64,000 nt of DNA. Source: Escherichia coli (GTDB lineage: Bacteria; Pseudomonadota; Gammaproteobacteria; Enterobacterales; Enterobacteriaceae). The notes under the pieces were generated by a model, which made no database searches, had not been told where the DNA came from, and worked only from the letters and a program-made list of their open reading frames with translations. Below are positions 41,335 to 43,465 of this stretch, piece by piece. Positions within the stretch are counted from its first letter, which is position 1. Each line of letters opens with the position of its first letter. The stretch lies in NCBI RefSeq assembly GCF_003790525.1, contig NZ_CP033635.1; one strand, given 5' to 3'. Both the position numbers and the translations under genes were made by a program.

Positions 41335-41480
41335 GTAACGGTAAAGCCCTCACCGAAGCGAGGGCTTGAAGGAGAAGGGTTATGATGCGACTTGTCATCA
41401 TACTGATTGTACTGTTACTCATAAGTTTCCCAGCTTATTAACAGTCAGTCTCAGGGGAGGAGTCATCCTCCCTTACCCTT
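41335..41480 (-). ncRNA. sibC: SibC (RygC) antisense sRNA, antitoxin to ibsC; ends approximate
   Basis: Antisense to ibsC; candidate minus-strand promoter TTGACA-N17-TAATTT around 41488..41516; 3' end not resolved. Confidence 0.4.
41382..41441 (+). CDS. ibsC: type I toxin, Ibs family small hydrophobic peptide (19 aa)
   Basis: Hand translation: MMRLVIILIVLLLISFPAY, stop TAA; SD ggagaagggtt upstream; in serA-fau intergenic region where K-12 carries ibsC/sibC. Confidence 0.7.
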   Translation: MMRLVIILIVLLLISFPAY

Positions 41481-41541
41481 ACTCACTAAATTAGGTTAAA
41501 GAATCAACGATGTCAATCAGGGCGATGCAGGTGTGTCGCCC

Positions 41542-42144
41542 TTACCACTCCCAGACTTTCGACGGTGTAACCACCGCAGGAAGTGGGATATCCCACTCTT
41601 CAACGGGAAGTTTTTCCACCAACTGACAATCATGCGCATAACCCACCGGTTGCATTTTATAGTGCTGCCAGTTTTGTAAGGTCCGATCATAAAAACCACC
41701 GCCCATTCCCAGGCGCTGGCCGTACTCATCAAAGGCGACCAGCGGTGTGATCAACACGTCTAATCGGGAAAGGGGTAGCACGTCACGCACATCCAGTTTT
41801 GGCTCATGGATCTTCAACCTGTTCATCACCAGTTCGCTTTGCGGATGGTAATTCAGGAACAGCAAGTTACCGGCACTAAAGGGATGCAAAACTGGAAGAT
41901 ATACGCGCTTACCGGCGCGCCAGAGTTGTTCTATGAGTGGCTGGGTGTCGAGTTCGCCATCAAAAGAGAGGAATACAGCGACCGTATGTGCCATCACCAC
42001 CGGGGGATAAGTCATCATCCGGGTAGCGGCTTGTTGACCCATTTCCTGCTGTTGTTCCGGCGTTAACGCACGACGACGTTGCCGAATCATTTTGCGGATT
42101 TCTTGTCGGGATAATGTCAGTGGAAGTTCTGGTAGTTGCGTCAT
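41542..42144 (-). CDS. fau: 5-formyltetrahydrofolate cyclo-ligase
   Basis: ORF 41542..42288 contains MIRQRRRALTPEQQQEMGQQAATRMMTYPPVVMAHTVAVFLSFDGELDTQ (YgfA); start ambiguous: Met at 42144 (200 aa) or 42090 (182 aa); upstream part of ORF overlaps 6S RNA. Confidence 0.8.
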   Translation of the reverse strand: MTQLPELPLTLSRQEIRKMIRQRRRALTPEQQQEMGQQAATRMMTYPPVVMAHTVAVFLSFDGELDTQPLIEQLWRAGKRVYLPVLHPFSAGNLLFLNYHPQSELVMNRLKIHEPKLDVRDVLPLSRLDVLITPLVAFDEYGQRLGMGGGFYDRTLQNWQHYKMQPVGYAHDCQLVEKLPVEEWDIPLPAVVTPSKVWEW

Positions 42145-42162
42145 GGCTGGTGCCAGATAAGA

Positions 42163-42348
42163 AGGGAATCTCCGAGATGCCGCCGCAGGCTGTAACCCTT
42201 GAACCCTTGGTTCAAGGTGAATGTGTCGTCGCAGTTTTAAGGCTTCTCGGACGGACCGAGCATGCTCACCAACCGCGGAGCGCCACATTCTTGTGGTATG
42301 AAATATCGGCTCAGGGGACTGGCCCGCTTGCGAACATCTCAGAGAAAT
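42163..42348 (-). ncRNA. ssrS: 6S RNA
   Basis: Minus strand reads AUUUCUCUGAGAUGUUCGCAAGCGGGCCAGUCCCCUGAGCCGAUAUUUCAUACCACAAGAAUGUGGCGCUCCGCGG...GGAGAUUCCCU, matching remembered 6S RNA; directly upstream of fau. Confidence 0.9.
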
Positions 42349-42389
42349 TTTGTCTTCACGGTTACTCTACCACAGTAAACCGAAAAGTG

Positions 42390-42785
<396 letters not shown>

Positions 42786-42886
42786 CTATAGCTACCCTGA
42801 TGAGAAGAGACAAGCCCTTTTCTGGTCCACCAGGGCCCAAAGTGGTAGCATATCATGAATATTCCTCCCTTTGACGACGAATGCTT

Positions 42887-43465
42887 ATGTCTATACAGAA
42901 CGAAATGCCTGGTTACAACGAAATGAACCAGTATCTGAACCAACAAGGGACGGGTCTGACCCCTGCTGAGATGCATGGTTTAATCAGTGGGATGATATGT
43001 GGCGGTAACGATGACAGCTCATGGCTGCCGCTACTTCACGACCTGACGAACGAAGGCATGGCTTTCGGTCATGAGCTGGCACAGGCACTGCGTAAAATGC
43101 ACTCTGCCACCAGCGATGCCCTGCAGGATGACGGCTTCCTTTTTCAGCTTTATCTGCCTGATGGCGATGATGTCAGCGTTTTCGATCGGGCTGATGCGCT
43201 GGCAGGTTGGGTCAATCACTTCCTGCTTGGTCTTGGCGTTACGCAACCGAAGCTGGACAAAGTGACCGGAGAAACCGGTGAAGCCATCGACGATCTGCGT
43301 AACATCGCGCAGCTGGGCTACGACGAAGACGAAGATCAGGAAGAGCTTGAAATGTCGCTTGAAGAGATCATCGAATACGTTCGTGTTGCCGCGTTGTTAT
43401 GCCACGACACCTTTACTCATCCGCAACCGACCGCGCCAGAAGTACAAAAACCGACTCTACACTAA
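42887..43465 (+). CDS. ygfB: UPF0149 family protein YgfB
   Basis: ORF 42881..43465; [40 protein letters not shown] matches YgfB. Confidence 0.85.

What the first reader, a model, noticed from the sequence alone, without database searches (positions are those of the whole stretch)
41542..42348. 6S RNA (ssrS) fused upstream of fau, with ambiguous fau start
The 6S RNA 3' end (about 42163) lies 19 nt from one candidate fau start (42144) and 73 nt from another (42090). Neither has a convincing SD. This is consistent with the dicistronic ssrS-fau transcript, but leaves the true translation start unresolved from sequence alone.
Basis: partly seen in the sequence, partly recalled or inferred. Interest (0 to 1): 0.2.

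Follow-up and report, generated by a model that had tools for sequence, protein, structure and literature searches.

The report
6S RNA–fau operon; fau start resolved
This is the well-known E. coli arrangement in which the 6S regulatory RNA gene sits just upstream of the folate-repair gene fau, and comparison with relatives plus published start-site profiling shows fau begins at the ATG 20 bases after 6S, not at the later ATG used in the K-12 reference annotation.

Summary
On the minus strand, ssrS (6S RNA) occupies 42348..42165 (Rfam 139.8 bits). The fau/ygfA frame ends at 41542 and has two in-frame ATGs, at 42144 (20 nt after 6S) and 42090 (74 nt after). Neither has a Shine-Dalgarno sequence (-1.5 and -0.7 kcal/mol, against a median of -5.4 for long ORFs in the window). 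The ambiguity is real in public annotation: RefSeq/PGAP aa, K-12 MG1655 aa.

It can, however, be resolved from sequence.
- In 78 Enterobacterales loci plus the window, the first ATG is conserved in 75 of 79. The second is ATG in only 10 of 79.
- Codons 12-18, between the two ATGs, show the same third-position-biased variation as the enzyme core. Arg13 and Arg17 are invariant through five synonymous codons each.
- Arg17 is invariant in 129 distant homologues. It lies in helix 1 (residues 13-25) of a confident model.
- Pfam PF01812 and TIGR02727 both begin at residue 13.
- Published tetracycline ribosome profiling (PMC4909307) places the ygfA start at -54, which is this ATG.

So fau starts at 42144. 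The missing SD and the C-rich, G-poor leader are conserved, and they fit the published Rho-dependent termination within ygfA. This is known biology with low novelty. The practical result is that the K-12 fau annotation is probably 18 codons short.

The parts
42364..42393 (-). Promoter-like site upstream of ssrS: ATGACA, 18-nt spacer with TG, TAGAGT. Its -10 element ends 16 nt upstream of the mature 6S 5' end. The position fits the proximal ssrS promoter P1.
   Evidence: Consensus scan, (2 sites found against 1.6 expected, so weak on its own). Assignment to P1 rests on my own knowledge of the literature (Kim & Lee 2004), not on a test here.
42165..42348 (-). ssrS, 6S RNA, 184 nt.
   Evidence: Rfam RF00013, 139.8 bits, full model 1-187. 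Annotated ssrS in identical RefSeq strains. Found upstream of fau in 81 of 83 sequences searched (80 fetched species loci, two annotated E. coli regions and the window).
42145..42164 (-). 20-nt spacer CTTCTTATCTGGCACCAGCC between the 6S 3' end and the fau start. It is 70% pyrimidine and has no Shine-Dalgarno sequence.
   Evidence: Orthologous spacers are CU-rich and SD-less in 75 of 76 loci, and 15-29 nt long in 62 of 76.
41542..42144 (-). fau (ygfA), 5-formyltetrahydrofolate cyclo-ligase, 200 codons plus stop. This is the long form, favoured here.
   Evidence: NCBIfam NF007661 447.7 bits and TIGR02727 179.7 bits. Pfam PF01812 positions 1-186. PGAP annotation. AlphaFold model pLDDT 95.9, matching solved MTHFS structures at TM 0.85.
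42091..42143 (-). Codons 1-18 of the long form, absent from the K-12 182-aa annotation. They comprise a variable tail (residues 2-11) and the conserved first half of helix 1 (residues 12-18, SRQEIRK).
   Evidence: Codon-position diversity for residues 12-18 is 0.289/0.144/0.606, against 0.244/0.192/0.591 for the core. Helix H13-25 with pLDDT 97. In-frame 6-nt indels only.
42106..42108 (-). Arg13 codon (CGA).
   Evidence: Arg in 78 of 78 Enterobacterales sequences through codons CGA/CGC/CGG/CGT/AGA. Arg or Lys in 107 of 131 distant representatives. Aligns to Lys10 of human MTHFS.
42094..42096 (-). Arg17 codon (CGC), invariant across the family.
   Evidence: Arg in 78 of 78 sequences through five synonymous codons. 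Arg in 129 of 129 distant representatives. One of 13 invariant columns in an 80-sequence alignment at 36-87% identity. Aligns to Arg14 of human MTHFS.
42088..42090 (-). Internal ATG (Met19). This is the start used by the K-12 MG1655 annotation (b2912, 182 aa).
   Evidence: The aligned codon is ATG in only 10 of 79 sequences. The rest are CTN/CAN/ACN/GAA and similar, never GTG or TTG. TetRP signal at this site was 0/1.75/0.33, against 150.5/4.68/0.62 at -54 (with column headers).
42390..42719 (-). zapA, the upstream neighbour. It carries the distal ssrS promoter according to the literature.
   Evidence: NCBIfam NF008209 221.8 bits. Annotation. The promoter statement comes from my own knowledge and was not tested.

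Best explanation
This is the canonical enterobacterial ssrS-fau transcription unit. The 184-nt 6S RNA gene (42348..42165, minus strand) is followed by a 20-nt pyrimidine-rich leader without a Shine-Dalgarno sequence. The fau (ygfA) gene for 5-formyltetrahydrofolate cyclo-ligase then follows.

Translation of fau starts at the ATG at 42144 and gives a 200-residue enzyme. The ATG at 42090 used in the K-12 reference annotation is an internal Met19 codon peculiar to a few lineages. A protein started there would lack the first half of helix 1 and the invariant Arg17.

The rest is inferred from the conserved anatomy plus published work. Because the start has no SD and the first ~95 nt after 6S are C-rich and G-poor, ribosomes load poorly. 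Rho can then engage the nascent RNA and terminate most transcripts within the 5' part of fau. Those transcripts are trimmed back to the 6S closing stem. Only read-through transcripts make Fau, so the cell produces much 6S RNA and little enzyme from one promoter set.

What is shown here: gene identities, spacing, absence of an SD, conservation of the first ATG, and coding constraint upstream of Met19. What is taken from the literature: co-transcription, Rho termination within ygfA, and the initiation-profiling signal at -54. What is inferred: the causal link between weak initiation and Rho termination.
For: Identity and spacing
- 6S RNA at 139.8 bits.
- Fau equivalog models above their cut-offs.
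- Model-to-structure TM score 0.85 against B. anthracis 5-FCL.

Start at 42144
- In 78 Enterobacterales loci plus the window, the codon aligned to Met1 is ATG in 75 and GTG in 1. The other 3 have an ATG a few codons away. The codon aligned to Met19 is ATG in 10 and a non-start codon in 69.
- Nucleotide diversity by codon position for residues 12-18 is 0.289/0.144/0.606, matching the core (0.244/0.192/0.591). Arg13 and Arg17 are each 78 of 78 through five synonymous codons.
- Indels between the two ATGs are 6 or 18 nt, whereas spacer lengths vary freely between 15 and 29 nt.
- Window against K-12: the only difference in the extension is synonymous, CTT/CTC at codon 7.
- TIGR02727 and Pfam PF01812 position 1 both fall at residue 13. 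The 182-aa form matches Pfam only from profile position 8.
- Solved homologues align from residues 12-14, and B. subtilis YqgN begins there.
- Arg17 is invariant in 129 of 129 distant representatives and is one of 13 invariant columns in alignment A2.
- The predicted helix 1 spans residues 13-25 at pLDDT 97.
- TetRP (PMC4909307) Table S2 lists ygfA with a new start at -54 ATG, category '1. new site'. The same site was picked independently as an intergenic start giving a 200-aa product.
- PGAP annotates the 200-aa form.

Weak initiation and Rho
- SD pairing is -1.5 kcal/mol.
- 75 of 76 orthologous starts are SD-less, and the C/G ratio is 2.1 over the first 95 nt after 6S.
- In the window the C-minus-G excess of +14 is in the top 2.6% of 95-nt windows.
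- Co-transcription is stated in PMC2848244.
Against: - No N-terminal peptide for YgfA was found in the TetRP study's proteomics (Table S2 row).
- The TetRP signal is strong in only one of three libraries (150.5, 4.68, 0.62). The site lies 20 nt from the end of a very abundant stable RNA, so contamination by 6S-precursor fragments cannot be excluded.
- The curated K-12 record still uses the 182-aa form, and I could not see the curators' reason.
- Predicted RNA folding does not favour the long start. The AUG at 42144 has unpaired probability 0.15-0.28, against 0.27-0.95 for the AUG at 42090.
- Minor initiation at Met19 in E. coli itself is not excluded.
- The link between weak initiation and Rho termination is an inference. 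I could not read Chae et al. 2011.
Confidence: 0.9

Rival explanations
1. fau starts at the ATG at 42090, as in the K-12 MG1655 annotation, giving a 182-aa protein. On this view the 74 nt after 6S are an untranslated leader.
For: The curated K-12 record annotates b2912 as 549 nt. 182-aa versions exist in databases (P0002 and others). The AUG at 42090 is predicted to be more accessible. The 182-aa form still passes the Pfam threshold (154.7 bits).
Against: - The Met19 codon is ATG in only 10 of 79 Enterobacterales sequences and is never GTG or TTG otherwise.
- The supposed leader evolves like coding sequence, with invariant Arg13 and Arg17.
- Arg17 is invariant across the family.
- The short form truncates helix 1 and loses Pfam profile positions 1-7.
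- TetRP signal at this site is near zero.
- Its SD pairing is even weaker, at -0.7 kcal/mol.
Confidence: 0.03
2. Both ATGs are used in E. coli. The main product is the 200-aa enzyme. A minor 182-aa isoform arises from the lineage-specific Met19 codon and is probably inactive or without a separate role.
For: E. coli, E. albertii, Salmonella arizonae and a few others do carry ATG at codon 19. TetRP gave small non-zero values at the old site in two libraries (1.75 and 0.33). The same study found dual sites for 22 other genes.
Against: There is no SD at this site. The signal is at background level. The internal ATG is not conserved, so no selected function is indicated. The isoform would lack an invariant Arg.
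Confidence: 0.07
3. Translation starts further upstream inside ssrS, at the ATG at 42288, giving the 248-aa ORF found by mechanical ORF calling.
For: The frame is open from 42366. A 248-aa protein is called in public assemblies (P0001, 2588 member sequences).
Against: - The extra 48 codons lie within a full-length, highly structured 6S RNA.
- In other genera the frame is closed by stops within or just after 6S. For example, the upstream frame opens only about 45 nt before the 6S end in Citrobacter, and an in-frame stop lies just upstream of the start in Salmonella arizonae L071.
- There is no SD (+0.3 kcal/mol).
- No family profile covers that part.
Confidence: 0.005

Closest known systems
E. 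coli K-12 ssrS-ygfA (fau) dual-function transcription unit (Hsu et al. 1985; Chae et al. 2011, as cited in PMC2848244 and PMC3299989)
   Same: The gene order zapA-ssrS-fau-sibC/ibsC-serA is identical. The 807-nt ssrS-fau stretch differs from MG1655 at 8 positions, 7 of them synonymous. The 6S RNA sequence is identical. The 20-nt spacer is the same.
   Different: Nothing biological differs. Only the annotated fau start differs: 182 aa in MG1655, 200 aa in PGAP-annotated strains and favoured here. This strain also has Met164 where K-12 has Thr.
5-formyltetrahydrofolate cyclo-ligase / MTHFS family (Pfam PF01812; TIGR02727; solved structures 2jcb, 1ydm, 1sou, 3hy3)
   Same: Full-length profile matches and the same fold at TM 0.85. 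The GxRLGxGxGxYD motif and the N-terminal helix Arg are invariant.
   Different: Enterobacterial proteins carry a variable, low-confidence N-terminal tail of about 10-12 residues ahead of helix 1 (pLDDT 74 for residues 1-10). B. subtilis YqgN and the Aquifex enzyme lack it.
SD-less translation initiation, and Rho-dependent (polarity-type) termination in poorly translated leaders
   Same: There is no anti-SD pairing, the leader is CU-rich, and C exceeds G over about 95 nt. Termination within ygfA is reported to be Rho-dependent.
   Different: The upstream 'cistron' is a stable non-coding RNA whose 3' maturation depends on this termination, rather than a translated gene. Whether ribosome loading at 42144 actually competes with Rho was not tested.

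Membership tests
6S RNA (Rfam RF00013) | Covariance-model score above the curated gathering threshold over the full model | tested here: met
   139.8 bits against 46.4, model positions 1-187 of 187, E = 2.2e-28
6S RNA (Rfam RF00013) | Closing stem, central bubble and terminal stem architecture | tested here: met
   The cmscan alignment shows the paired closing stem and internal helices with only two non-canonical positions. The MFE fold of the transcript reproduces the long closing stem.
6S RNA (Rfam RF00013) | Binds sigma-70 RNA polymerase holoenzyme and templates pRNA synthesis | not testable with these tools
   The sequence is identical to the experimentally studied K-12 6S RNA, so the function is inherited by identity.
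6S RNA (Rfam RF00013) | Gammaproteobacterial synteny with ygfA/fau immediately downstream | tested here: met
   6S found upstream of fau in 81 of 83 sequences searched: 80 fetched species loci, two annotated E. coli regions and the window. Literature.
5-formyltetrahydrofolate cyclo-ligase (NF007661 / TIGR02727 / PF01812) | Equivalog HMM scores above the curated cut-offs | tested here: met
   NF007661 447.7 against 343. TIGR02727 179.7 against 84.9. PF01812 163 against 27.
5-formyltetrahydrofolate cyclo-ligase (NF007661 / TIGR02727 / PF01812) | Complete domain including the N-terminal helix with the invariant Arg | tested here: met
   Met by the 200-aa form (Pfam 1-186 of 186, Arg17 present). 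Not met by the 182-aa form (Pfam 8-186, Arg17 absent)..
5-formyltetrahydrofolate cyclo-ligase (NF007661 / TIGR02727 / PF01812) | MTHFS fold | tested here: met
   Model pLDDT 95.9. Foldseek: 2jcb at E = 8.5e-18 and TM 0.85; human MTHFS 3hy6 at TM 0.81.
5-formyltetrahydrofolate cyclo-ligase (NF007661 / TIGR02727 / PF01812) | ATP-dependent conversion of 5-formyl-THF to 5,10-methenyl-THF | not testable with these tools
Shine-Dalgarno-led initiation | Anti-SD complementarity 4-15 nt upstream of the start codon | tested here: not met
   -1.5 kcal/mol (42144) and -0.7 kcal/mol (42090), against a median of -5.4 for long ORFs. 75 of 76 orthologues are also SD-less.
Rho-dependent terminator / rut region | C-rich, G-poor, weakly structured RNA of roughly 80 nt or more | tested here: met
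   C 30 and G 16 in the 95 nt after 6S, in the top 2.6% of windows. Orthologue means are C 32.3 and G 15.3. Composition alone is only suggestive.
Rho-dependent terminator / rut region | Bicyclomycin- or Rho-dependent 3' ends in vivo and in vitro | not testable with these tools
   Reported by Chae et al. 2011 as cited in PMC3299989. The primary paper is not held.

The most novel reading that the evidence does not exclude
The conserved absence of an SD, together with the CU-rich, C>G leader directly after 6S, may be a selected device in which ribosome loading at the fau AUG competes with Rho. Any change in initiation efficiency, for instance with growth phase or with processing of the 6S 3' end that leaves a leader of about 20 nt, would then set the ratio of mature 6S RNA to Fau enzyme. 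One natural case fits this idea. In Superficieibacter electus, fau has lost the upstream 6S gene, and there its start overlaps the stop codon of the preceding ORF and is preceded by an SD-like GGAAGAG. This is only a modest extension of the published Rho-termination model, not a new kind of system.
Probability: 0.35. Interest if true: 0.3.

Novelty: already known. Interest (0 to 1): 0.12.

Why it matters
Biologically this is a textbook locus. The practical value lies in annotation. The E. coli K-12 MG1655 reference record, and anything derived from it, lists Fau as 182 aa. That form lacks 18 N-terminal codons, including an Arg that is invariant across the whole 5-FCL/MTHFS family. Anyone cloning 'ygfA' from that annotation for enzymology, complementation or persister studies could be expressing a truncated and possibly crippled enzyme. 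PGAP-annotated genomes already carry the 200-aa form. The conserved SD-less, C-rich leader also gives a clean sequence-level rationale for the reported Rho-dependent termination that shapes 6S RNA 3' maturation.

Tried and rejected
- **Primary papers not held.** I tried to read Chae et al. 2011 (JBC, Rho-dependent termination of ssrS) and it is not held. I therefore rely on how PMC3299989 summarises it. I also tried Wu et al. 2009 (human MTHFS structure) and Meier et al. 2007 (B. anthracis 5-FCL) for the role of the N-terminal Lys/Arg. Neither is held. Two full-text searches for those residues returned only unrelated papers. The statement that human Lys10 and Arg14 contact the ATP phosphates is therefore from memory only.
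- **Retapamulin Ribo-seq.** The preprint has no held supplements.
- **RNA accessibility.** Folding around the two AUGs did not discriminate in favour of the long start and if anything favours 42090. I give it little weight because co-transcriptional folding and 6S processing are not modelled.
- **The 248-aa ORF.** The ORF through ssrS (ATG 42288) is rejected as a gene-calling artefact.
- **Terminator-like hairpin.** The hairpin at 41715..41700 inside fau is rejected as chance: 1 found against 1.9 expected.
- **First anchor regex.** My first regex for locating the conserved RQRRR motif failed on about a third of loci. I replaced it with a MAFFT-based column mapping.
- **N-terminus positions.** A first count of N-terminus positions in distant homologues was distorted by terminal-gap placement. 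I replaced it with a count of residues upstream of the Arg17 column.

Full report
**What is there.** The window is E. coli chromosome. The 1.4 kb around the finding is 100% identical to several RefSeq strains and is present in 5425 of 5426 complete genomes. The genes on the minus strand run in this order:
- zapA at 42719..42390 (NF008209, 221.8 bits).
- ssrS at 42348..42165 (Rfam RF00013, 139.8 bits against a gathering score of 46.4, full-length model).
- A 20-nt spacer.
- The fau/ygfA frame, ending at 41542 (NF007661 447.7 bits, TIGR02727 179.7 bits).
- The sibC/ibsC type I toxin-antitoxin pair (Rfam SIB, 136.5 bits, 41516..41366).

serA follows on the plus strand. A promoter-like extended -10 site at 42393..42364 sits where the proximal ssrS promoter is expected.

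**Checking the observation.** The two in-frame ATGs are at 42144 and 42090. The 6S 3' end is 42165 by Rfam and PGAP, or 42166 by the 183-nt K-12 annotation.

The absence of an SD is real. The best anti-SD duplex is -1.5 kcal/mol for 42144 and -0.7 for 42090. That is weaker than for about two thirds of all 2127 ATG triplets in the window. The first ATGs of 33 long ORFs have a median of -5.4, zapA has -7.8 and serA has -5.4.

The ambiguity also exists in public annotation. PGAP calls a 603-nt fau starting 20 nt after ssrS. K-12 MG1655 b2912 is 549 nt and starts at the second ATG.

**Resolving the start with related sequences.** I fetched 80 fau loci from different Enterobacterales species. I located 6S with nhmmer and fau with tblastn, extended each fau frame upstream to the nearest stop, and aligned the translations.
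- *Start-codon conservation.* The codon aligned with E. coli Met1 is ATG in 75 of 79 sequences and GTG in one (Shimwellia). The three apparent exceptions have an ATG two codons upstream, three codons downstream or about ten codons upstream. The codon aligned with Met19 is ATG in only 10 of 79: Escherichia, Pseudocitrobacter, the Citrobacter amalonaticus group, Salmonella arizonae and two unnamed Enterobacteriaceae. Elsewhere it is CTN, CAN, ACN, GAA, ATH, TTY, GTT, GAY or GCT, and never GTG or TTG. The K-12 start therefore does not exist in most relatives.
- *Coding signature.* The stretch between the two ATGs evolves as coding sequence. Nucleotide diversity at codon positions 1/2/3 is 0.289/0.144/0.606 for residues 12-18, against 0.244/0.192/0.591 for residues 19-70. 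Arg13 is Arg in 78 of 78 sequences through CGA/CGC/CGG/CGT/AGA. Arg17 is Arg in 78 of 78 through five codons. Gln14 and Ile16 are each 74 of 78.
- *Indels.* Length changes between the ATGs are in frame: +6 nt in Escherichia, +18 nt in some Cedecea, and a 6-nt deletion in E. coli Z1323HEC0477. The non-coding spacer takes every length from 15 to 29 nt.
- *Within E. coli.* The only difference from K-12 in the extension is synonymous (codon 7, CTT/CTC), and 7 of the 8 differences across the 807-nt ssrS-fau stretch are synonymous.
- *No other candidate.* No canonical start codon other than the ATG at 42144 lies between the 6S end and codon 13. There are CTGs in the spacer (42156) and at codon 9.

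**Evidence from the protein family.** TIGR02727 and Pfam PF01812 both place profile position 1 at residue 13 of the long form. The 182-aa form matches Pfam only from profile position 8. Solved homologues align from residues 12-14, and B. subtilis YqgN (1ydm) and the Aquifex enzyme (1sou) begin exactly there.

An exhaustive HMMER search over 50%-identity representatives gave 33,998 relatives, and the best hits align from query residues 7-16. Among 131 full-length representatives, the Arg17 column is Arg in 129 of the 129 that have a residue there. The Arg13 column is Arg or Lys in 107. Every protein has at least 4 residues upstream of that Arg.

In an 80-sequence alignment at 36-87% identity, Arg17 is one of only 13 invariant columns, alongside Arg144, Gly146, Gly148, Gly150, Tyr152 and Asp153 of the signature motif. 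An AlphaFold model built on that alignment has mean pLDDT 95.9. It places helix 1 at residues 13-25 (pLDDT 97), preceded by a less confident tail (pLDDT 74 for residues 1-10). It matches B. anthracis 5-FCL at TM 0.85 and human MTHFS at TM 0.81.

Starting at Met19 would remove half of helix 1 and an invariant Arg. From the PDB alignment, Arg13 and Arg17 correspond to human Lys10 and Arg14. My recollection that these contact the ATP phosphates could not be checked against a held paper.

**Published experiment.** Nakahigashi et al. [quoted passage not shown]
- Their Table S2 row 100 lists ygfA with a new start at -54 (ATG), confirmation class '1. new site'.
- TetRP values at the new site were 150.5, 4.68 and 0.62. 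At the annotated site they were 0, 1.75 and 0.33.
- Their Table S5 independently lists the same ATG among intergenic start sites, giving a 200-aa 'alt-N' product whose sequence matches the window apart from one synonymous base.
- No N-terminal peptide was recorded for it.
- The signal is uneven across libraries, and the site lies next to a very abundant RNA. I count this as supportive rather than conclusive.

**How it most likely works.** Co-transcription of ssrS and ygfA, and its conservation in gammaproteobacteria, are established (PMC2848244; PMC4064990). [quoted passage not shown] 2011). ΔssrS alters fau expression (PMC5982834). The sequence fits this picture and adds two points.
- *SD-less by design.* The lack of an SD is not an accident of E. 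coli. 75 of 76 orthologous starts pair with the anti-SD more weakly than -4 kcal/mol (median -1.5), and the spacers are CU-rich.
- *Rut-like composition.* The first 95 nt after 6S have about twice as many C as G in all lineages (means 32.3 and 15.3). In the window the excess of +14 is in the top 2.6% of 95-nt windows. This is the composition expected of a Rho utilisation region.

The inferred mechanism runs as follows. Weak ribosome loading at 42144 leaves this RNA naked. Rho terminates most transcripts within the first ~90 nt of fau. Exonucleases trim back to the 6S closing stem. Only read-through transcripts are translated into a small amount of Fau. The causal coupling is inference and was not tested.

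One anecdotal natural control exists. In Superficieibacter electus BP-1 (L049) no 6S gene lies upstream of fau. There the fau ATG overlaps the stop of a preceding ORF and is preceded by an SD-like GGAAGAG (-4.1 kcal/mol).

**Comparison with what is known, and verdict.** Everything here belongs to known families, and the locus is the type example of the ssrS-fau unit. Its conclusion that the start cannot be resolved is not, since comparative sequence and existing initiation profiling both point to 42144. The one useful product is a correction: the K-12 MG1655 fau annotation (182 aa) is very probably 18 codons too short, as TetRP suggested in 2016 and as PGAP already annotates. Novelty is 'already known' and interest is low.

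Noticed in passing
window 41366..41516 (-) and 41382..41441 (+): The sibC antitoxin RNA (Rfam SIB_RNA, 136.5 bits) and, antisense to it, the 19-codon ibsC toxin ORF (MMRLVIILIVLLLISFPAY) lie directly downstream of fau. This is a known type I toxin-antitoxin pair. The Rfam model's first positions look like the sibC promoter -35 box (TTGACAT).
   Followed up: partly
window 41542..42288 (-): A mechanical 248-aa ORF extends the fau frame through the 3' two thirds of the 6S RNA gene. Exactly this over-extended protein is present in public predicted-protein sets (P0001, 248 aa, cluster of 2588 member sequences). It is a gene-caller artefact that swallows a non-coding RNA gene.
   Followed up: partly
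window 42115..42126 (-); L083:747-1343: Escherichia coli and E. albertii carry a 6-nt (Leu-Pro) insertion in the variable N-terminal tail of Fau relative to other genera, which looks like a small tandem duplication (LPE-LP-L). One complete E. coli genome, strain Z1323HEC0477, lacks it (fau 597 nt). It is only 91.6% identical over the 131-nt segment, which suggests a divergent or recombinant allele.
   Followed up: partly
L027, L030, L053 (Klebsiella, Enterobacter sp. 10-1, Raoultella); L066, L068 (Yersinia); L073, L075 (Serratia): The 6S-to-fau spacer is 15-29 nt in most Enterobacteriaceae but 52-125 nt in these genera. The longer spacers can form moderate hairpins and end in a weak AGG-containing SD-like motif. 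What the extra sequence does is unknown.
   Followed up: partly
L049:1040-1160 (Superficieibacter electus BP-1): No 6S RNA gene is detectable within 1.2 kb upstream of fau, by nhmmer or by Rfam. Instead the fau ATG overlaps the stop codon of another ORF (ATGA) and has an SD-like GGAAGAG. A sister species (L035) keeps 6S. This is a rare break of the ssrS-fau linkage.
   Followed up: partly
L074:1222-1224 (Shimwellia pseudoproteus): The codon at the conserved fau start column is GTG rather than ATG. It is the only non-ATG start among 79 sequences.
   Followed up: no
window 42881..42887 (+): The longest ygfB ORF starts at ATG 42881 (194 aa) with no SD (+0.4 kcal/mol). RefSeq annotates ygfB as 579 nt (192 aa), which implies a start two codons downstream. 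This is another small start-site ambiguity in the same neighbourhood.
   Followed up: no
summary (E. coli genomes): Of 6058 matching places for the zapA-ssrS-fau-ibsC segment, one lies on a record labelled as a plasmid, and some genomes have two places. These could be a misassigned replicon or a partial duplication, for example of sib repeats. I did not inspect them.
   Followed up: no
L066:1889-1995 (-) (Yersinia pestis): Downstream of fau, where E. coli has sibC/ibsC, Yersinia has the sRNA Ysr224 (Rfam RF02770, 128.5 bits).
   Followed up: no
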